From Octopus vulgaris (taxonomy: Eukaryota), in assembly GCA_951406725.2 (NCBI GenBank), contig OX597817.1, forward strand, positions 33,914,001 to 33,978,000: DNA of 64,000 nt, given 5' to 3'. The notes under the pieces were generated by a model. That model was given only the letters and a program-made list of their open reading frames with translations. It did not search any database and was not told the DNA's origin. A program made the position numbers and the translations under genes. This document shows, in pieces, positions 2,780 through 20,140 of the stretch (position 1 is the stretch's first letter; each line of letters opens with the position of its first letter).

Positions 2780-4010
2780 AGAGAAGACAAAGATTCTGTG
2801 ACATTCACATCTTTCACAAGAGTGTAAAGCTACCAATCCAAGACAAAAGAGAGACATGGGGCCTAGAAGCAGGAAGTTTTGGTGAGAAATTCACGTGACA
2901 GACATGGGTGAAAGCATCAGTGATGTCAACAACAATAACAACAGTGTTCACTAAATTTCTTGGAGGTGACAGTCCAATGGTGATTAATATAGGAGAGTAG
3001 GTCTCCAGCAGATCTGACTTCATTCATAAAACCAGATGTACTGCTGGTCACTAAGGGGAGGAGAAACAGATTTAAAGAAGACTGTTATTAATGACTTTCT
3101 TCATCACTTTTGAGATACTGGAAATGTATGATAGAACAGGTTAGTATTTGGCAGTGAGATGGGGATGGCTCCTTGAGACTAGGACATGTAGCAGGTTTCA
3201 AGATCGGTATGTATCTTGGGTGGTGGGAGAAATTGAAGATTTTATGAAGGGCTAGATCTGAAGTGGATTGTTTGAAGATACTGAAAAAGACATTGTCAAG
3301 GTCAGTGGCCTTCTTGGTTAGAAGTGACCAGCAATACTTTCAAACTAGGTGTGTCTGTTTACATGATGATTCAGCCTAATGGTTTGGAAAGGGATGGGTT
3401 TGAAGGGGACTTACCTAATGTGTACAGCGTAGAGTTGGATATATAGCAAGCAGCAAATGTGGAGAAGTGAAGGGAAGAAGGGTTTCACAAAGTCGGTAGA
3501 GCTCCTTTTGGCAAAGGATCAAAAGAATCAGGTTACAGTTTCTGAGATAGGAGAGCTTGTAAGCTGTGATGCAGGAAGACATACTTTGCAGTTTGAATGG
3601 TCTTACAAAAAATGCAGTTCTGGAGCACTCCAGTTTGTGGAGGTGGGTGACTTTCTCCAAGCATTGTAGGCTGCATTTTTTTTGCCTTGTCTGCTGCAGT
3701 ACAGATATGAGTGAACCACAGAGAGAACTTGTGTTGTAAGTATTTTCTGCAAGGTGTAGAGGGACATGTTTAAGAAGATGGGTTCAAACACAGTTGTTCA
3801 GTAACAAACTTCAGTAAATATTCAGAGAACAATTGTTGTGTTTTTATACCAATGTTGATCACTCCTTGTATTTGTAACAAAAATGAGGAAAAAAACAACA
3901 AAAAGGATGACAATAGGTAGTTACTTTGAGACAGCAAAAAAGAAATTGAAAACTTTGGTAGAGGAAGAGGAGGAGGAAGATCTGGTTGACCAAGAGATGG
4001 TCTTTTTTTT
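2780..4010 (-). mobile_element. Highly degraded CR1/Jockey-type LINE reverse-transcriptase remnant in an AARS intron
   Basis: Residual RT motifs: 'SDLL...VVDITDAFTHVCH...KL...LLSWIGSF' (cf. LDISKAFDRVWH) and a KAT.LD-like segment near 3300. Many stops. Confidence 0.6.
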
Positions 4011-7493: not shown

Positions 7494-7649
7494 CTGTTTG
7501 GTAAATAAAAAAGAATGTGTGTCAATAATATCAAATGATGGTGAAGAGACAAAGGACAGAATAAAATCAGCTTCATAAATATCTTAATACATAAAATTGA
7601 CAAATGAAAAGTGCATTAAGCAGTGTTGAATAGAAATATAGTTATGTAT

Positions 7650-8060
7650 AGGCGCAGGAGTGGCTGTGTAGTAAGTAGCTTGCTAACCAACCACATGGTT
7701 CCGGGTTCAGTCCCACTGCGTGGCATCTTGGGCAAGTGTCTTCTGCTATAGCCCCGGGCCGACCAATGCCTTGTGAGTGGATTTGGTAGATGGAAACTGA
7801 AAGAAGCCAGTCGTATATATGTATATATATATATGTATGTGTGTGTTTGTGTGTCTGTGTTTGTCCCCCTAGCATTGCTTGACAACCGATGCTGGTGTGT
7901 TCACGTACTCGTAACTTAGCGGTTCGGCAAAAGAGAACGATAGAATAAGTACTGGGCTTTCAAAGAATAAGTCCCGGGGTCGATTTGCTCGACTAAAGGC
8001 GGTGCTCCAGCATGGCCGCAGTCAAATGACTGAAACAAGTAAAAGAGTAAAAGAGAGAGT
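7650..8060 (+). mobile_element. tRNA-derived CORE-like SINE (~400 bp), the dominant family; other copies at ~22034-22443(+), 27696-28112(+), 47822-48045(-), 48753-49130(+), 49264-49576(+), 52260-52665(+), 53939-54342(+), 54432-54820(-), 58798-59197(-), plus fragments
   Basis: A-box-like gtggctgtgtggtaag and B-box-like gggttcagtccc, CORE-like ccttgggcaagtg, an internal (TA/TG) microsatellite, and tail ggtgctccagcatggccgcagtcaaatgactgaaac(aagtaaaag)n. Confidence 0.88.
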
Positions 8061-9007
8061 ATAGTGTTATTTAATATGTTTCATCATCATCATCATTTAA
8101 CGACCATTGTCCATGCTGGCATGGGTTGGATGGTTGCGCCAGGATTCAATTTGATTTGGTATGGTTTTTGTATGGCTGGATGCCTTTCCTAACACCAACC
8201 AACCAATCTGAGAGAGTAATGGGTGCTTTTAGGTGCCACTGGTATGGGTGCCAATTTGCATGACACCAGTATCTGCCACGACTACAAATTTGTTCGGCTT
8301 GATGGGTCTTATTCTCAAGCATGAAATAATGCCAAAAGGTTTTGGTCATTGCCTCCATGAGGCCCAACACTTGAAAGGAGCTCAATCACTTTGCCTCCAT
8401 GAGGCCCAACACTCCAAAGGAACTCAGCCGCCTCACCTCCATCAGGCCCGCTTAAAAGGAACTCAACCACCTCTCCTCTGCCAGGCCCAACACTCGGTGT
8501 TTTGTCTTTCCATGTCTGGATGTACACAAACATGTTAAAAAAGACTATACATAACTATAGTGGTTTCAGATTTTAGCACAAAACCAGCAATTTCAGGAGA
8601 GGACCTACAACAACCCCAGTGCTCAACTAGTACTTATGGAAATTTTCATATCCTACTTAATGTGGATATATTGTTAAAATGCCTTGAGAAATCTTCTCAT
8701 ATACACATTTATTGCTAAGAAGTAGAGACATATTGATGTTGTTAGCAGATGAGAAATAGTCCAACACTGGTGGTGGAACTGCAAGAGCATGTGAGATCAG
8801 TGTGTTTGCACTTCATCAGTAGCAGGCATTCACTCACTAACTGGGATCCACCAGCAAGGTCATGCACTGTTTATCTTGATATGAGATCACCATGTTGCAC
8901 ACATATGGTTGTGATGTATGTGCCTGGTGTACCCTTATCAGATGGGAATACTGGGCTTCCTATATTTTACCCCAGTGTCATTTTCATGGCATGCACTGCT
9001 CTCTCAC

Positions 9008-11756: not shown

Positions 11757-12512
11757 CTGAAACAAAAAATGGATAGTATTAGAAAATATCTACACAGTTA
11801 TAAAGTTCATTTTACATTTAATATACAACATAAAACAGTCTAAAACTATTTTACAGTTTCTATGTCTGGTGTAAGCTTCTTAGTTTTAAGTTCTTCTGCA
11901 CTGATCAGTACATTGGGCAGGAAGCTTTCTCCCACCAGGTTATGTTGGTTGCTATTCTTGCACATCCATTCCATGTAATGCTGGCTGTCTTCAGAAACGT
12001 TAGCACGCCGGGCGAAATGCTTAGTGGTATTTCGTCTGCCGTTAGGTTCTGAGTTCAAATTCCGCCAAGGTCGACTTTGCCTTTCATCCTTTTGGGGTCG
12101 AGTAAATAAGTACCAGTTATGCACTGGGGTCGATATAATCGACTTAATCAGTTTGTCTGTCCTTGTTTGTCCTCTCTGTGTTTAGCCCCTTGTGGGTAGT
12201 AAAGAAATAGGCATGTACTGGGTGCTGTTTTTCATTGAGGTCACCATGCAGTTTGCAAGACTATGAGTGTTGTTCCATTACACAAATGGTCCACAATATT
12301 TTTTACAGTTACATCAAGGAATGCATGGGAAGAAGAGGTGATGTGAATCCAAGCATGTTGACTTACAGTGATAAGACACTGGATGAAAACAAATAGAAAA
12401 ATACCATGTTGTATCCAACTCCTGCTAGAACCATTGATAACAATAAATAAGGATTCTTTGTTATATATGACATATATATCACAAATATTGATATCACCAG
12501 TAAATTACATAC

Positions 12513-12656
12513 CTGATTCATGCCAGCATTTGCAAATAATAATGTTGGGTCATCGTGGGGAATCACAGATGAAGAATGGACATACAAGTGCTCTTTCTCC
12601 TTGAAGAAATCAAGAAAGCTGTTTCTCACTTGACTACTTGTTAAGTAAGTCTTCAT
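12513..12656 (-). CDS. AARS1: Alanyl-tRNA synthetase, first coding exon ([18 protein letters not shown]...[14 protein letters not shown])
   Basis: 144 nt. Contains the AlaRS motif-1 region [21 protein letters not shown]. Acceptor ttatttttatgacAG lies 8 nt upstream of the ATG (exon starts 12664); GT donor at 12512-12511. Confidence 0.96.
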
Positions 12657-13032
12657 ACTGGAAACTGTCATAAAAATAAAAGCAAAGTTTTACAGCTGGA
12701 TCAACAAAATTAGCAATAGAAATTGTCTACTTCAATAAAACCCTTAAATATATACATGCAGGCATAGCTGTATGATTCTGGGTCCAGTCCTACTGCATGA
12801 CATCTTGGCAGGTATCTTCAACTGAAATCTCCAGAGTGAAATAAGGAGCATGTAAAATGTGTGTGTGAGTGTGTGTAAACTAGTGTCAAGATGCATCACC
12901 TAACACTAAAATAAGTACTAGGAATAAATATAATCAGCTAACACTCTTAATTATGATGCCTTAAGACAGTTGAAATCAGTAAACGAATAAGGGGAAAAGA
13001 GAAGTTCATATGAATCTAATAAAAATAAAATT

Positions 13033-13268
13033 ATTGCAGCGTGGAAGGTGTTTATAAGCCATTTAAGAAACACACAAAAACCGTTAGATTCACTTCAACA
13101 TTTAAATTTAATTTGTCAAAATATTTTCGTCGCTTTGAGACAGAGACCTGTTCACTGACAAAACTTTGTGTGTTTCTTAAATGGCTTATAAACACCTTCC
13201 ACGCTGCAATTGTTTTCATTCTAGCACACGATCTCAGATCAGGTCACTTGCTATGCAAGTACATCTCC
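13033..13268 (-). mobile_element. Penelope-like element terminal fragment in a partially inverted arrangement, containing a minimal hammerhead motif
   Basis: 12-bp TSD aaaaataaaatt (13021-13032 / 13269-13280). 46-bp inverted arms at 13033-13078 and 13165-13210. Hammerhead-like core between the arms. Inverted ends and minimal hammerheads are established PLE hallmarks. Confidence 0.65.
13112..13162 (-). ncRNA. Putative minimal type-I hammerhead ribozyme, G3-C8 core variant
   Basis: Minus strand reads TTTGTCA-GTGAACA-G-GTC(tctgtctcaaagc)GAC-GAAA-ATAT-TT-TGACAAA. This gives a 7-bp stem I, a core, stem II, GAAA, a palindromic stem III and a UU cleavage site. Confidence 0.55.
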
Positions 13269-14889
13269 AAAAATAAAATTGTTTCAAAGATATCATCTAT
13301 AACAATTCCAAAAATATCAATTTGCTATTCTCTCTAAAGAATTGGGCTTACATTTTCATTTTCACAGTAAGCTTTTCTTATTCTTAAATTTTTACAACGA
13401 ACATTCAACTGAGTTTTAATTTGTTTAAATCACTGCCATCTTTATACTTCTAGTTACTCTCACCCACCTTATATAGTGTTGGGTAGGCATATAGCTTCTC
13501 TATAACAAGACACCTGGGGTTGTTGCTCTATGATACTGTTTTAAAATTGTTTTAATTTTGTTTAAATCAGAAATAATTAGCTATTGTTAATTATTGTTTC
13601 TGTTGGTTATTATCTACAGATATTGTCTCTGTTAGTTATTATCCAGGGTTTTAAAAAAATGGAGTCGGAGAGACTACAGATATTAACACTATTAGTGACA
13701 AACCTGAGCAGGGAAGAGAAATATCTCAACTGTTGCCACTTGCTATCGATATAAATTTGGAAACCATAAAAACAACTGAGGTCATTGACTTCCATTTGAC
13801 TGTTGTGAAAAAAAAAAAAAAAAATCATGTGGCTCAGATGTATCATATTGGTGCAAATAGGAGAGCAGGAACAAAGAACCAGACAGGCACACACAAGAAA
13901 ATACTCAATGCATTAAAACTGAAACATATGTAAATGTCAGCAGGTGAAATGCTCAACACAATGACTAACCTAATTCAGGTTGTTTATGATATGAATGGTC
14001 TTAAAATAAAAAATCCTGACAGACGTACAGAAAGTTACCTGCACATAACTCAAGGGAAGTTCAACACTCATTTCACCAGGTGATCAAATGCCTTTATCTT
14101 CTGTTATAATCTTACTTCTAGAATACTTTATATGGACTATTCTACTTTTACTCTCAAGTTTCAAGGTCGCTGTTAGAGAGTAGGGAGGGGCATAGTTCTA
14201 ATCCAGAGATTCACGGTCTATATATAGACCAGTGTTTTAGTTACATGCTACCATTAGTCAGTAATTAGTTGTGAAGATTGTGCATTACTATTAGGAATAC
14301 TGTTAAACATGTGGTATAGAATGTATCCTTTTGATATCAGTGTTTACTGCAACCCTTATGACACCAGTCCTTGTAAAATACATTCTGTTGTCCTTACTAT
14401 TTTCTATGAGCTATAATCAATGAACTCAACAAGATTTATTTAGTTGGTTTAATTTCACTTCCTTTTTTTTTTTAATGTCTGTTTTCCATGTTGTCCTGGG
14501 TTGTACAGTTTGACAGGAGCTGACAAGTCAAACTGTGCCAAGCTCCAGTTTCAGCTTTGGCAGGGTTTCTATATAGCTGGATGCCTTTCCTAATGCCAAT
14601 CACTTTACAATGTGTGGTGGATGCTTTTTTTTTTCATGCCACCAGCACTAGATGTGGTCACCAAGTAACATGCAAGACGTGAAAGAACAGGAAAAAGGAA
14701 AAGCTCTCTCAACTAAATTTGTGCGGGTGGGATTTTAGGGGCCAGTGGTTCTATGCCAGGTGTTGAGAGGTAAAAGTATCATAGAGCAACAACCCCAGGT
14801 GTCTTGTTATAGAGAAGGTATATGCCTACCCAACACTAAGGGTGGATGAGAGTAACTAGAAGTATAAAGATGGCAGTGATAATATCTCA

Positions 14890-15705
14890 AGATACAAGAA
14901 GCTAAGAGAGAGAGAGAAGTAGCTCAAGAAGGAAAATAGACCAGAAAGGAGGATGACATGCAAAGTGGAGGTATGGTCATGTGGCGAGAATGGATGAGGA
15001 TAGCTGTATGAAAAAGTGCCACACCCTAGCAGCTGAGGGAACCTGTGGATGAGGTAGACACAGGAAGACCTGTGATGAGGTGGTGAAGCACAACCTTCAA
15101 ACATTAGGCCTCACTGAGGTAATGACTAGTGGCCGAGACCTTTGGAAATATGCAGTGTGTGAGAAGACCCAGCAAGCCAAGTGAGACCATAACTCGTGGC
15201 CTATGCCAGGGGTGTAACCAGCCCACTTATGCATACCTTTCCTTCACTTGACACTAAACTCTGCTTGCAAAGACCTGTTGAGGCAATCGAAATCGAATCA
15301 AATTCAATGACTGGCATCCATGCCAGTGGAGTGCTAAGAGCACTATCCAAGTGTGATCGTTGACAGAGCTGCTGACCAGCTTCCATACCGGTGGCATGTG
15401 AAAAACATTCAAGCGAGGTAGTTGCCAGTGCCACTTGACTGGCTACTGTGCAGGTGGCACGTAAAAAAACACCATTTAAGCGTGGCCGTTGCCAGTACTG
15501 TCTGACTGGCCCTCGTGCCGGTGGCACGTAAAAGCACCCACTACACTCTTGGAGTGATTGGCGTTAGGAAGGGCATCCAGCTGTAGAAACTCTGCAAGAT
15601 TAGATTGGAGCCTGGTGCAGCCATCTGGTTTGCCAGCCCTCAGTCAAATTGTCCAACCCATGCTAGCATGGAAAGCGAATGTTAAACAATGATGATGATG
15701 ATGAT
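14890..15705 (+). mobile_element. RTE-clade LINE 3' portion (decayed ORF2 C-terminus plus repeat-bearing 3' UTR, (GAT)n tail); 3'-end fragments also at ~1100-1300, 8085-8400, 16235-16552, 17969-18115, 21467-21650, 22705-22850, 25930-26130, 27165-27460, 31015-31335, 39408-39630, 45293-45615, 50977-51200, 59395-60080, 62390-62932
   Basis: Remnants of W(Y)GHV.RM and GTCG.GR.RKT motifs, followed by ...ttaggaagggcatccagctgtagaaac...aacccatgctagcatggaaa...(gat)n. Confidence 0.85.
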
Positions 15706-15709
15706 ATAT

Positions 15710-16668
15710 ACTAGACTACCTGTGACCTGTTAGGTCTCCAATAGTTCAAGGTACCCCAAAAAACTGTGTTTTGGAAGCTGTGGTCCAATTTATGCAAAAC
15801 TTGTTTTATTCCATTTGTATTCACATTTCAATGGTACCTTACTTTCAAAGTATTCTCCCATTATACACCAGTTTGGCTGTATTAAATTACTGACAAGCAC
15901 GCATACAGGCAATTATAAAGGTACCCGAAAAAACCCCACATATCTTAGGAACCTGTGGTCAGATTTACGTGAAACTTGTCTTATAACATTTGTATTCCCA
16001 TTTCAAGGGCACTCTATATTCAGAGTATTTTCCCATTATGCGCCAGTTTGGCTGTATTAAATTACAAACAAGCACACATGCAAGCAAGCAAGCAAAACTA
16101 TCCAGGTGTTCATAGTAAATAGCAATAATAACTCCAGGTTCCACAGCTTAAATTTGTGGAAACAAACCCAAAAAAAACTATGTATCTCAAGAATCCGTAG
16201 TCCAATTTATGCGAAACTGGTTTTCTTGTTTATCCATGCCAGTGACACATAAAAAGCACCGTCCGAATGTGGCAGATCCCAGCGCCACCTGACTTGCATC
16301 CGTGTCGGTGACACATAAAAGCGCCAACCAATCATGGCTGTTTGCCAGCCTCCCCTCGCCCCTGTGCCAGTGGCACGTAAAAAGCACCCACTACATTCAC
16401 GGAGTGGTTGGTGTTAGGAAGGGCATCCAGCTAGAAACACTGCCAGATCAGACTGGAGCCTGGTGCAGCCTCCTGGCCTCCAAGACCCCAGTCGAACCGT
16501 CCAACCCATACTAGCATGGAAAACGGACGTTAAACGATGATGATGATGATGATTTCAGAGTTACCTTACTTTCAGAGTATTATTTTCCCATTATACATTG
16601 GCTTGGCTGTATTAAATTACAGACAAGTATGCAGGCAAGCAATCACAGAGTTTTAGTAGTATATAGAT
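15710..16668 (+). mobile_element. Non-autonomous Helitron/Helentron-like element with ~170-190-bp internal tandem units, interrupted by an RTE tail
   Basis: Starts ACTAG followed by a short hairpin-like segment and ends ...ttttagtagtatatagat. Three diverged units (~15750, ~15920, ~16165+16555), each ending in a (caag)n-type microsatellite. Confidence 0.5.
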
Positions 16669-16908
16669 ACACACACATATATATAAGCAATGGGCTTCTT
16701 TCAGTTTTCGTCAACCAAATCCAGTCACAAGGTTGGCCAGGGGCTATAGTGGAAGATACTTGTTCATGGTGTCATGCAGGAGAAGTGAATTTGAAGTCAT
16801 TTGGTTGTGAAGCAAACTTCTTACCACACAGCTATGTGTGTACCAATACTCAACAGTTATTTTTTAATTAAAGAAAATGCTGGCCTCAACTTTATACAAT
16901 GTCTACAC

Positions 16909-17085
16909 CAGTGCTTTTCAAACTTTTTGCTGGAGCGGAACCCCAAGGAAACATTCCACTGGCTCGGGGAACCCGTGCAATAATTTAATAGTCTTATGCA
17001 CACATATCTGCACAGGAGAATTAAAAATTACTGCCAGTTTTAGCAGTTTTGTAACTTCTTGCGGAACCCTGGTTGAAAACCACTG
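16909..17085. mobile_element. hAT (Charlie-like) MITE
   Basis: TIRs CAGTGcTTTTCAA / TTGAAAAcCACTG and perfect 8-bp TSD gtctacac (16901-16908, 17086-17093). Confidence 0.9.
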
Positions 17086-18499
17086 GTCTACACTGTAGAT
17101 AACAATACCATTCTATTTCCTCCCCTCAACTACAATCTTGAATAGCTTTTAATATTTAGTACATAGACTTAATATAGAAAGAGATTTTTTTAAAATTAAA
17201 TACAATAATACAAGTTTTCCAAGCAGGAATGGAGATCACTTTCGTGATTAAAAAGAAATTATATCATAGGCACTAAATACATTTGGAAAAAGAAAATGCT
17301 GTACCACACCCTTTATAAATGCAAAAACCTAACAAATTAGCTAAAACATTTAATGTCAACACATTTCTTGATTTTGTTTTTTTTTTCAACTACCAAATGG
17401 AAATCAATGATGATCTCAGCAGTTTCTAAATTTATGTCAATATCAAATAACAAAACACTCTAGATGTTTCTCTTCCCTGGTCATTGTTGTTACCTATGTT
17501 ATTAATATCTATTTCTTTATTGCCCACGGGGCTATTAATATCTAGTCACTCCATCCTTCAAATCTCTAGCAATGAAAGTTTAATGGAAATATATTAGAAA
17601 ACGTCACTCAGATTCTCTCTAGAAAACCTCCAGCTGGTTAAGTTATCACTTTTTTTCTTCCTACATATTTTCCAAGCCGTCTTTTAACTTCCTTCTCTAG
17701 ACTACTTAGAAACTTGCCTTAAGACTACCTTCAGAAATGATAATAAAAAAACAAGGTTTCATGATTATAAGGAATAATCATAAATGAATGGTATAAATAT
17801 GTAACTTAAACGAAATCTTGATGAAAAATTTTTTAATATTTTTTTAAAAATTAGTGCAAGTAAGGAAGCACCTCCATATTGTGTGTTAGGAACGCTTTTG
17901 GAAGCACCTCCATATTGTGTGTTGACGAGAAAAAGAAAGAAAAAGGCCTCAGTCATTAAGTGAAAACCGCGTTAGGAAGGGCATCCAGCCGTAGAAACAC
18001 TGCCAGATCAGACTGGGCCTGATGCAGCCTTCTGGCTTCACAGACCCCAGTTGAACCGTCCAACCCATGCTAGCATGGAAAGCGGACGCTAAATGGTGAT
18101 GATGATGATGATGATTTTCAGGGTCTCTGATGGGGAAGAGGAAACAACTTTCACACTATACCTGGTCCAAAAGTTAGACACACAAAGACCAAGGGTGAAC
18201 AGGGGCGAAGGATTAACTGACTAGCTCCACAGTTTCCGTCAATCAAATCTGACTGACAAGGCTTTGGTCGATCAGAGGCCATGCTGATAGACACTTGACC
18301 GAAGTGTCGTGCAGTGGGACTGAACCAGAAACCATGTAATTGTGAAGCGAACTTCTTTATCATACAGCCATACATGCACCTATATGTTTATGTAGTCCAT
18401 AAACTAAATAATTTCAAATTATTAACAGAATTGATATCTACCAGTAAAACTAAATGAAATTATAATTCAATGAAATGAAGGGTTGAAGAAATAACTCAT

Positions 18500-20140
18500 A
18501 AACAACTAAATAAGCCGAATTTAGTGAACGGGACATTCTCTTCGTCGCAAACATTTAGGCTTCTTCAAATAGGTCTTCTCTTACTGCTATTAATGTTCAA
18601 ATTGGCGCTTAATAATGCACGCCAGTCTGGTGAACTGTTAAAACACAAAGACTCGTACGAAAGAAACCTGATTGCGCACTAGAGGAGCACGGGTTTCTCG
18701 GTTTTCACTTAATGACTGAGGCCTTTTTCTTTCTTTGTCTCGTCAACACACAATATGGAGGTGCTTCCAAAATATTTGCACAAAATCTTTTGACGAGGCA
18801 TTATCCATTTCCGATCATTAATTTGCTATCCTCTAGTCATATGCCAGATGGCGAGGCAAAACTTCGTGGATCTAACAGCTAAGTGTATCGAGACTCCACC
18901 CCGTGCAACACATTTCTTTCTATGGGTCTTAACACTAAGAAAGCTTACTTTCGACACGTTTTATGTTGCTACCCGATAAAACACTTAATTCCACAATCAG
19001 ATTCCCTCCTCTTCACCCTTCTTTTTATCAGGCCCATAACAAGAGATATAGGAGTTGTCTAGGAATAGCAATATGGCTATGAAATTTTTGCTATATTGCC
19101 ATAATAAAACTTCATTCATAATTTTAATTCTATAGCCATATAGAGAAGAATTAAGATTCTATGTCAATATATTAATATCATTATTATAGTGTCTGTGCGT
19201 GAGTATATATATATTTATTTATATATTGCAGAGGTATCCAAAAGTCGAAAATATATTTCTTCAACCCTTCATTTCATTGAATTATAATTTCATTTAGTTT
19301 TACTGGTAGATATGTGTTAATAATTTGAAATTATTTAGTTTATGGACTACATAAACATATAGGTGTATGTATGGTTGTATGATAAAGAAGTTCGCTTCAC
19401 ATGACAGCGGCCTATTATACATATAGGCTGTCTATAGGCTGTCGTGTTTATTAAAACTTAAGATATCAAAATATAAGCGGGTTGAAAGAATGATGCAATA
19501 GAAAACGTATATATGTTACATATTGCCACATTACATTTAACTATGTAATCAGAAGCATATGTAAAAGAAAATACAAGAAAATTAAAATACTTACCCGACA
19601 ATCGAACTGTCTTGAAAAACACAAGAGTGAATAAAAATGTGAGATGAGAAGAAATTAGATGAATTAACGATATTTAGTTAACAACCTTAGAAACAGACAA
19701 CAACCGGGACGAGTTGCAACAAAATACAACTCTCCGTATAATGGTACAGGCTAAAAAGTATCAATGAAACACGCACATCTTACTCTCCCATGTATAGGTA
19801 CTTTCTGCTGTCTGTAGCGTAAATTAGCCAGTAATTTTTCAGTTATATATATATATTAATCTATAACGCCACTAACTGCCTGTATTGCATCATATTTTGT
19901 CCTTTTAATGTTAATATTGCAATTTCCTAAGCAAAATATTTGTTTTTAATCTTTTACTTAATTTTTAGCTTTCGTTTCTTTAGTTTGATTTGACAATTAT
20001 CGTGCTTACTTGATAACACTTGGTTATCACATGTTAAAGTTAGTGATAGCATATTTAAATGCAGTGAACATACTTTCGAAGAGAGATCGAGAAAGATCCG
20101 CGAATAAGGCGGCGGCGACGCTGTTGTTGTTGCATAATCC
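18500..20140. promoter_or_regulatory. CpG-retaining, largely TE-free region; candidate AARS1 promoter and start of intron 1
   Basis: Visibly more CG dinucleotides than the CpG-depleted flanks (e.g. gatccgcgaataaggcggcggcgacg at ~20095-20120). Surrounds the candidate first-exon donor. Confidence 0.45.
19595..19740 (-). other. AARS1: Probable non-coding first (5' UTR) exon of AARS1; upstream boundary approximate
   Basis: Consensus donor CGG|GTAAGT at 19595/19594 in unique, CpG-richer DNA. The coding exon has an acceptor upstream of its ATG, so an upstream exon is required. Frames joining to the ATG contain stops. Confidence 0.55.

What the first reader, a model, noticed from the sequence alone, without database searches (positions are those of the whole stretch)
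13112..13162. Minimal hammerhead-ribozyme motif with a swapped G3-C8 core pair, sense to AARS1 intron 1
Seen: the minus strand gives stem I UUUGUCA/UGACAAA (7 bp), core GUGAACA, one extra G, stem II GUC/GAC (extendable past one mismatch), GAAA, a palindromic AUAU stem III, then UU. Established: Penelope-like elements carry minimal type-I hammerheads with palindromic stem III that act as dimers. The canonical core CUGANGA has a C3-G8 Watson-Crick pair that tolerates compensatory swaps. Here both positions are swapped (G3-C8), so CUGANGA-based scans would miss it. Inference: a cephalopod PLE family uses a non-canonical hammerhead, and this copy lies in the pre-mRNA of an essential gene ~450 nt upstream of the first coding exon. 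As a lone copy with U17 it may be weak or inactive.
Basis: partly seen in the sequence, partly recalled or inferred. Interest (0 to 1): 0.8.

Follow-up and report, generated by a model that had tools for sequence, protein, structure and literature searches.

The report
Swapped-core hammerhead of octopus Penelope retroelement
This is a short, mutated leftover of a common octopus jumping gene whose whole family carries a hammerhead-shaped RNA with two paired core letters swapped; the family's RNA likely still cuts itself (untested), whereas this copy, inside an intron of an essential gene, is predicted to misfold and probably does nothing.

Summary
The motif is there as described (13162->13112, minus strand). 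It is part of a 236-nt stub of a Penelope-like element (PLE) with an inverted end and a 12-bp target duplication, in intron 1 of AARS1 (splice joint in 3 of 4 RNA-like runs). The G3-C8 core is the family state: 5,393 exact pattern matches, 132 of 146 examined copies, none C3-G8. It lies about 1 kb behind an RT + GIY-YIG frame in 12 of 12 young long-frame loci and 56 nt before the start codon of the next unit. Sister families have U3-A8 or C3-G8 and three outside relatives C3-G8, with double-sided changes in 9 of 10 counted pairs, so the fold is conserved and the swap is derived. Cutting is not shown; copies do not pile up at the predicted cut (58 vs 63). The window copy has two private changes and is predicted to misfold, so the AARS1 location is probably incidental. 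I found G3-C8 in print only as a lab double mutant, but could not read Lunse 2017. This scan noted the same family six times before on other DNA of this genome. New variant of a known kind; interest 0.5.

The parts
13112..13162 (-). Minimal type I hammerhead motif with G3-C8 core (G3 13155, C8 13150), extra G 13148, stem II 13147-13143/13133-13129, palindromic stem III 13125-13120, U17 13119; predicted cut 13119/13118
   Evidence: Sequence; descriptor vs shuffles; covariation
13142..13144 (-). Two G-to-U changes of this copy against its subfamily majority: 13144 (breaks stem II pair 4) and 13142 (first loop II base)
   Evidence: differences from majority; pair probabilities
13033..13170 (-). 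Sense arm of the PLE stub: end of the pseudo-LTR with the hammerhead, a 56-nt spacer, the start codon at 13062-13060 and the first 10 codons of the PLE frame; no tail
   Evidence: Alignment to 30 copies; partial tandem L208; translation
13165..13268 (+). Inverted arm: second copy of the element end, start codon at 13181, about 29 codons, including the roughly 55-nt tail; complementary to 13033-13082 over about 50 bp
13021..13032 (+). Left copy of a 12-bp target-site duplication
   Evidence: Identical 12-mers on both sides
13269..13280 (+). Right copy of the 12-bp target-site duplication
12665..19594 (-). AARS1 intron 1 (in the 5' UTR) hosting the insertion
   Evidence: Joint 12664-19595 with CT..AC ends in 3 of 4 runs
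12513..12664 (-). AARS1 first coding exon (start codon at 12656)

Best explanation
The window holds a short, inverted-ended stub of an abundant octopus Penelope-like retroelement, and the family's conserved hammerhead with a swapped G3-C8 core pair is likely a real but slow self-cleaving RNA, while this particular copy is predicted to be inactive. SHOWN: in complete elements the motif sits at the end of the pseudo-LTR, about 1 kb behind the RT-GIY-YIG frame and 56 nt before the start codon of the next unit. G3-C8 is fixed in an old and a young subfamily and is derived from C3-G8. INFERRED: (1) the 3-8 position needs a Watson-Crick pair rather than given letters, so the double change keeps partial activity, as in the lab C3G/G8C mutant of another PLE hammerhead; (2) stem III is only a 6-nt palindrome, so cutting needs a second copy (tandem transcript or another RNA molecule) and probably the element's own protein; (3) the transcript probably starts about 15 nt before stem I, and reverse transcription starts inside the first ~30 codons and runs on uncut RNA back to that start, which gives ~200-nt stubs like this one; (4) a cut would remove a ~58-nt leader from the element's mRNA or free units from tandem transcripts, so it acts on the element's own RNA and not on host genes.
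For: PLE link: 1,069 places carry the upstream extension; RT + GIY-YIG frames lie upstream; 12 of 12 young long-frame loci have the motif about 1 kb downstream; GIY-YIG Pfam E 1.8e-5; the partial tandem L208 runs from the motif into the ORF. Family state: 5,393 exact matches, control 0; 132 of 146 copies G3-C8, none C3-G8. Selection on structure: old vs young subfamily majorities differ at 0 of 42 stem/core positions, 4 of 8 loop II positions plus a length change, and 13 of 186 flanking positions. Eight aligned motifs (3 family G, 1 I, 1 H, 3 outside) give 93.8% paired cells and double-sided changes in 9 of 10 pairs, 3-8 pair CG 4 / GC 3 / UA 1; slid controls 22-48%. Tree ((H,I),G) has support 100 and outside relatives are C3-G8. 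Cofolding gives the double-hammerhead stem I/II pattern for typical copies but not for the window copy. 21 of 30 short copies have a G just before the shared start where long copies have C or T. PMC11167929: the C3G/G8C double mutant partly restores cleavage of a PLE hammerhead, cleavage needs protein, and RT starts inside the ORF on unprocessed RNA.
Against: No cleavage data. No excess of copies beginning at the predicted cut: 58 vs 63 at the next base; upstream replaced in 20 of 30 vs 15 of 30. The within-family contrast is weak on its own (0 of 42 against a 7% flank rate). The covariation count rests on 8 hand-picked, related rows, three from one family, with one row misaligned in stems I and III. 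Sister family H has C at the normally fixed A9 in 29 of 30 young loci, so this clade may tolerate damaged cores. The tree is a quick search without bootstrap. The transcription start is inferred from copy ends only.
Confidence: 0.7

Rival explanations
1. The family motif keeps the hammerhead fold but no longer cuts; it is conserved as a structural or protein-binding element at the 5' end of the element's RNA.
For: No pile-up at the cut. 24 of 30 tail-selected loci reach at least the start of stem I, so their templates were uncut. Family H spreads with a C9 core. In PMC11167929 catalytic mutants did not affect insertion in vitro and no RNA-seq reads ended at the cut.
Against: The unpaired catalytic letters U4, G5, A6, G12 and A13 are invariant in all 8 aligned motifs, and the 3-8 pair stayed Watson-Crick through two independent double changes. 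A purely structural role would not obviously demand that. Uncut templates are also expected for an active but conditional ribozyme.
Confidence: 0.22
2. The copy in AARS1 intron 1 is active, alone or by pairing with family transcripts, and cuts AARS1 pre-mRNA, lowering or regulating its expression.
For: Sense orientation in the intron; core letters intact; family sequence is present in all 4 RNA-like runs laid, so partners may exist; the isolated motif still forms stems I and II with probability about 0.6.
Against: Two private changes; predicted probability of stems I and II is 0.0 within the element and with 300-nt flanks, against 0.6-0.8 in two other inverted-arm copies; cofolding gives no hammerhead dimer; it is one of thousands of dispersed copies; spliced AARS1 contigs are present, although I could not show that those animals carry this insertion.
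Confidence: 0.05
3. The motif is a chance look-alike inside a repeat, spread by copy number only.
For: Folding energy of the 51-mer is not unusual; Rfam gives no match.
Against: Same position relative to the ORF as canonical hammerheads of related elements; compensatory changes; 0 of 60 shuffles hit; Rfam also misses the canonical relative.
Confidence: 0.03

Closest known systems
Minimal type I hammerheads (min-HHR) in pseudo-LTRs of metazoan PLEs (Cervera and De la Pena 2014, PMC4209133; read parts 1-2 of 4 and term-searched 1 of 2 supplementary files)
   Same: Type I topology, extra nucleotide between 9 and 10.1, G10.1-C11.1, palindromic stem III, place in the pseudo-LTR, mostly single dispersed copies, U17 common.
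   Different: Core pair is G3-C8. In what I read, the only natural swap is U3-A8 (Schistosoma Cercyon). The extra nucleotide is G here and H in their consensus.
PAc (Poseidon of Anolis carolinensis) hammerhead and its engineered C3G/G8C double mutant (Frangieh et al. 2024, PMC11167929; read parts 1-2 of 4)
   Same: Hammerhead at the pLTR-ORF junction; tail equals the ORF start; AT-rich targets; the same swapped pair partly restores cleavage.
   Different: There the swap is a lab rescue mutant and the cut lies 26 nt inside the ORF; here it is the natural state of a family with thousands of copies and the predicted cut lies 56 nt before the start codon.
Natural hammerhead core variants (Perreault et al. 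2011, PMC3088659; passages only)
   Same: Compensatory covariation at positions 3 and 8 occurs in nature.
   Different: The passages report U3-A8; term searches for G3-C8 and G3C8 gave 0 occurrences.
C-terminal EN+ PLE clades Neptune and Nematis (as defined in Craig et al. 2021, PMC8557442; passages, sections 11 and 12, metadata file)
   Same: RT, then a CX3CXXC linker, then GIY-YIG with CCHH; (TA)n bias; inverted 5' copy and one-sided tail.
   Different: DKG reads DKS, and RT motifs A to B' are 120-124 residues apart against 53 in two other PLE families of the same genome; the paper describes canonical C-terminal EN+ PLEs as lacking such an insertion. Clade not assigned.
Non-LTR retrozymes (bioRxiv 10.64898/2026.07.22.740005; read part 1 of 5)
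   Same: Short repeats with a type I hammerhead, linked to PLEs.
   Different: Those are non-coding tandem repeats; these stubs are dispersed truncations of a coding element and contain its start codon.

Membership tests
Penelope-like element, C-terminal EN+ | [quoted passage not shown] | tested here: met
   L206 1,025-residue open frame with DKS and YVDD; GIY-YIG Pfam over cut-off, E 1.8e-5; Pfam RVT_1 not hit, and the shorter L207 frame hit nothing; RT motifs align with a Pfam-RVT_1-matching PLE; 61 homologs at E<=1e-20
Penelope-like element, C-terminal EN+ | Pseudo-LTRs from partial tandems; inverted 5' copy; tail at one end | tested here: met
   L208 partial tandem, L206 inverted copy with tail; window stub
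Penelope-like element, C-terminal EN+ | Hammerhead in the pseudo-LTR | tested here: met
   12 of 12 young long-frame loci; 3 of 8 older loci in the stretch examined
Neptune / Nematis clades | CX2-5CxxC linker and CCHH motif in the endonuclease | tested here: met
   Read by eye from the translation; definition from PMC8557442
Neptune / Nematis clades | No insertion in the RT fingers domain | tested here: not met
   Motif A to B' spacing 122 vs 53
Neptune / Nematis clades | Phylogenetic placement with reference elements | not testable with these tools
   No named clade references were held; the supplement file searched is metadata
Naiad / Chlamys | N-terminal GIY-YIG | tested here: not met
   GIY-YIG at residues 915-1005 of 1,025
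Hydra clade | DKT motif, CxCX5C linker, no CCHH | tested here: not met
   DKS, CX3CXXC, CCHH present
Minimal type I hammerhead of PLEs | Core letters CUGANGA | tested here: not met
   GUGAACA; C3-G8 in 0 of 146 copies
Minimal type I hammerhead of PLEs | Watson-Crick pair between positions 3 and 8 | tested here: met
   G-C in 132 of 146 copies; 8 of 8 aligned motifs paired, three pair types
Minimal type I hammerhead of PLEs | Stems I and II, G10.1-C11.1, extra nucleotide after A9, GAAA, palindromic stem III, UH | tested here: met
   the window copy has one broken stem II pair
Minimal type I hammerhead of PLEs | Dimeric active fold | tested here: inconclusive
   Cofolding gives intermolecular stems I and II for typical copies but does not show stem III
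Minimal type I hammerhead of PLEs | Self-cleavage after H17 | not testable with these tools
   Indirect genomic test negative; contigs cannot show RNA ends
Rfam hammerhead families | Covariance-model match | tested here: inconclusive
   No match for the window, a young copy or a canonical control
Non-LTR retrozyme | Non-coding head-to-tail tandem repeats | tested here: not met
   Dispersed stubs of a coding element

The most novel reading that the evidence does not exclude
A currently amplifying octopus PLE uses a natural G3-C8 hammerhead as a dose- or protein-dependent switch that cuts the capped ~58-nt leader off its own mRNA. Sister families set the same switch differently (U3-A8; C3-G8 with C9) within a PLE lineage that combines a C-terminal endonuclease with a ~70-residue RT insertion and may be undescribed.
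Probability: 0.22. Interest if true: 0.75.

Novelty: new variant of a known kind. Interest (0 to 1): 0.5.

Why it matters
It would be a natural, family-wide example of the hammerhead's 3-8 pair in the reversed orientation, which I found in print only as a lab rescue mutant. CUGANGA-based descriptors miss it, so counts of PLE hammerheads and statements that some PLE families lack one may be too low. Three sister families in one genome with G-C, U-A and C-G cores, two of them young with long open frames, make a ready test set for the open question of what PLE hammerheads do. For AARS1 it most likely matters little.

Tried and rejected
Rfam: no hammerhead match, also none for a canonical control, so uninformative. 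Naiad as partner (lead from PMC8557442): rejected, the endonuclease is C-terminal; the family's motifs are not in that paper's one held supplement, which is metadata. The dominant 781-residue PLE family A as partner: no shared end; family copies near it in L091, L113 and L129 and ORF scraps in L010 and L019 are not joined to the element. MITE or stand-alone non-autonomous element: dropped once the upstream extension led to the ORF. A second G3-C8 family in this genome: loose pattern 1,111 vs control 947, no second hammerhead family among the 100 listed; the pattern excluded U at the second stem II position, so this is not exhaustive. Pile-up of copy ends at the cut: none; only purine-preceded ends were counted, so fold-back junctions were excluded by design. 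Splice-acceptor reading of the shared start: no matching donor found within 1.3 kb upstream in two long copies; not excluded. No run holding the stretch is on record as RNA; the four laid are RNA by guess. Conservation of this family's motif in other species remains untested. Look-up of earlier findings by sequence gave nothing. Six of nine metagenome relatives gave no usable hammerhead (truncated, interrupted or decayed) and were left out of the alignment; L286 was read by eye, not by the descriptor. Lunse, Weinberg and Breaker 2017 (PMC5785218) is not held.

Full report
OBSERVATION. Folding energy alone is unremarkable (z -0.91). A descriptor allowing any Watson-Crick 3-8 pair finds only this site in the window and none in 60 shuffles. 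Rfam is blind to this motif class here, including a canonical control. The exon at 12513-12664 is the AARS1 N-terminus, and contigs of 3 of 4 RNA-like runs splice 19595 to 12664, so the motif is sense to intron 1, 448 nt before that exon.

THE ELEMENT. 13033-13268 is one insertion flanked by a 12-bp direct repeat. It is a sense arm carrying the motif plus an inverted copy of the element's end with a ~55-nt tail. The same build, with variable junctions and frequent (TA)n flanks, recurs across the genome and matches the PLE pattern described in PMC8557442 (passages). A strict pattern for the motif matches 5,393 places, reversed control 0. A shared extension seen in three copies matched 1,069 places and led through a microsatellite-rich 3' UTR to an RT + GIY-YIG frame. 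In 12 of 12 loci chosen for the longest open frames, an identical G3-C8 motif lies about 1 kb behind the frame; in 8 older loci it was found in 3. L206 has a 1,025-residue open frame with DKS, YVDD, a CX3CXXC linker and a Pfam GIY-YIG hit. L208 is a partial tandem in which the motif is followed 56 nt after the predicted cut by a start codon, and the tail is simply the first codons of the ORF. The window stub contains these codons on both arms. The best named homolog is labelled Octopus vulgaris by its source (54%); 'octopus' rests on that.

IS THE SWAP REAL AND UNDER SELECTION? Of 146 de-duplicated copies spanning motif to start codon, 132 are G3-C8, none C3-G8, and all have U17. These were picked by similarity searches, and copies decay neutrally after insertion, so this shows the source state and not selection. 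Between an older subfamily (97 copies, the window's) and a young one (49), majority letters differ at 0 of 42 stem and core positions, 4 of 8 loop II positions plus one base of length, and 13 of 186 flanking positions; an old and a young ORF-linked copy are 83% identical over 1.2 kb. That contrast is suggestive only. Stronger evidence comes from relatives. Family I has the motif at the same place with U3-A8 and stem II GUUGC/GCAAC (18 of 30 loci). Family H has C3-G8, stem II GUCAC/GUGAC and C at position 9 (29 of 30 loci). Of nine metagenome relatives, three show a hammerhead behind the ORF, all C3-G8 with the extra G. A quick IQ-TREE search of 32 rows gives ((H,I),G) with SH-aLRT 100 inside those relatives (no bootstrap; one family with no open frame dropped). 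On 8 aligned motifs, 93.8% of cells pair, 9 of 10 pairs show double-sided change, and the 3-8 pair reads CG 4, GC 3, UA 1; slid controls give 22-48%. The rows are few, related and hand-picked, and one is misaligned in stems I and III, but two separate double changes at 3-8 that both keep pairing are hard to explain without selection. G3-C8 is therefore a derived, compensated state.

HOW IT LIKELY WORKS. PMC11167929 (parts 1-2 read) shows for a lizard PLE that single C3G or G8C kills cleavage, the double mutant partly restores it, cleavage needs the element's protein, reverse transcription starts at two sites inside the ORF start (which explains the tail), and unprocessed RNA is the main template. 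The octopus data fit this. In 30 loci picked by the tail alone, 24 reach at least the start of stem I, 15 stop within -3 to +4 of one position 15 nt before stem I, and 2 go further. Among 30 short copies that start there, 21 have a G in front where long copies have C or T (11 of 18 without the set; two pairs are arms of one insertion). From general knowledge (recalled, no call), such an extra G can come from copying the mRNA cap, which would make this the transcription start; a splice acceptor is the alternative, but I found no fitting donor. Typical copies fold into stems I and II with high probability, and two copies cofold into the double-hammerhead pattern. The likely picture is a slow, dimer- or protein-dependent ribozyme whose cut removes the short leader from the element's mRNA or frees units from tandem transcripts, while insertions come from uncut RNA. 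Against activity: copies starting exactly at the cut are no more frequent than at the next base (58 vs 63; upstream replaced in 20 of 30 vs 15 of 30), and family H spreads with a changed A9. I put 0.7 on the whole explanation and 0.22 on a conserved but non-cutting fold.

THE AARS1 COPY. It differs from its subfamily by two G-to-U changes, at 13144 (stem II) and 13142. In the element or with 300-nt flanks, the predicted probability of stems I and II is 0.0, against 0.6-0.8 in two other inverted-arm copies; without the inverted arm stem II forms but stem I does not. Cofolding gives no hammerhead dimer. Spliced AARS1 contigs are present in the laid runs, although whether those animals carry the insertion is unknown. 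An effect on AARS1 is unlikely (0.05).

WHAT IS KNOWN. The hammerhead-PLE link, the minimal build and the natural U3-A8 swap are published (PMC4209133, parts 1-2 of 4 read; one of two supplement files term-searched; PMC3088659 passages). G3-C8 appeared only as an engineered variant in what I saw (PMC11167929; PMC3884650 passages; PMC8495972 passage). Six full-text searches and term look-ups in PMC6155905, PMC6765202 and PMC11014351 gave no natural case and no octopus hammerhead paper; I read part 1 of 5 of bioRxiv 10.64898/2026.07.22.740005. The most relevant paper, Lunse et al. 2017 on small PLE hammerhead variants, is not held, and figures and unsearched supplements may hold a G3-C8 family, so the novelty claim is provisional. 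The element is a C-terminal EN+ PLE, not Naiad or Hydra by the motifs in PMC8557442. It has the Neptune/Nematis linker but an RT motif A-B' spacing of 120-124 residues against 53 in two other families, so I do not assign a clade. Earlier notes of this scan describe the same family six times in this genome and G3-C8 candidates in two other genomes; they are unchecked and I do not count them as support.

VERDICT. Observation confirmed; interpretation partly supported. New variant of a known kind; interest 0.5.

Noticed in passing
L227 2514-2563 (+); family H, L226-L255: A very young sister PLE family (open frames up to 1,312 residues) has C at the normally fixed A9 and a non-palindromic stem III in 29 of 30 loci; activity unknown.
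   Followed up: partly
L280 2437-2483 (+); family I, L256-L285: Older sister family with a U3-A8 core, 5-bp stem II and a 4-nt palindrome in 18 of 30 loci.
   Followed up: yes
L092-L107; L068-L085: A second young PLE family (A) with many intact 781-residue frames, often an overlapping upstream frame, a tandem-repeat 3' UTR and a U3-A8 hammerhead.
   Followed up: partly
L126, about 276 nt behind the ORF end at 3785 (+): Single candidate hammerhead with an A3-U8 core and only a 2-bp stem II; one locus, not checked in other copies.
   Followed up: no
L196 5647 and 6008 (-); L223 4684 (-) and 4870 (+); L108 3725 (+): Other U3-A8 hammerheads, two of them 361 nt apart in tandem, possibly a retrozyme-like repeat.
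   Followed up: no
L286 4965-5017 (+), metagenome contig: Canonical-core hammerhead with the 15.1-16.1 pair reversed (U-A), read by eye.
   Followed up: no
L206 2971-6045 (-) and homologs P0003-P0045: The clade has about 70 extra residues between RT motifs A and B' together with a C-terminal endonuclease, a combination not described in the passages read.
   Followed up: partly
30 short copies among fetched loci: Extra G before the shared 5' start in 21 of 30, suggesting copying of an mRNA cap or a very short 5' exon.
   Followed up: partly
L111, L112, L122, L124 (family E): Hammerhead-like motif behind the ORF reads CCGAAGA (U4 to C) in four loci and CUGAAGA in L120 (by eye).
   Followed up: no
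P0059: An annotated octopus protein (dynein regulatory complex subunit 6-like isoform) contains a piece 66% identical to this family's ORF over 15% of the query: exonised PLE or a gene-model error.
   Followed up: no
window 7647-8075, 15401-15705, 12042-12150 and their copies: Several other dispersed repeat families and long microsatellites fill the window's introns.
   Followed up: no
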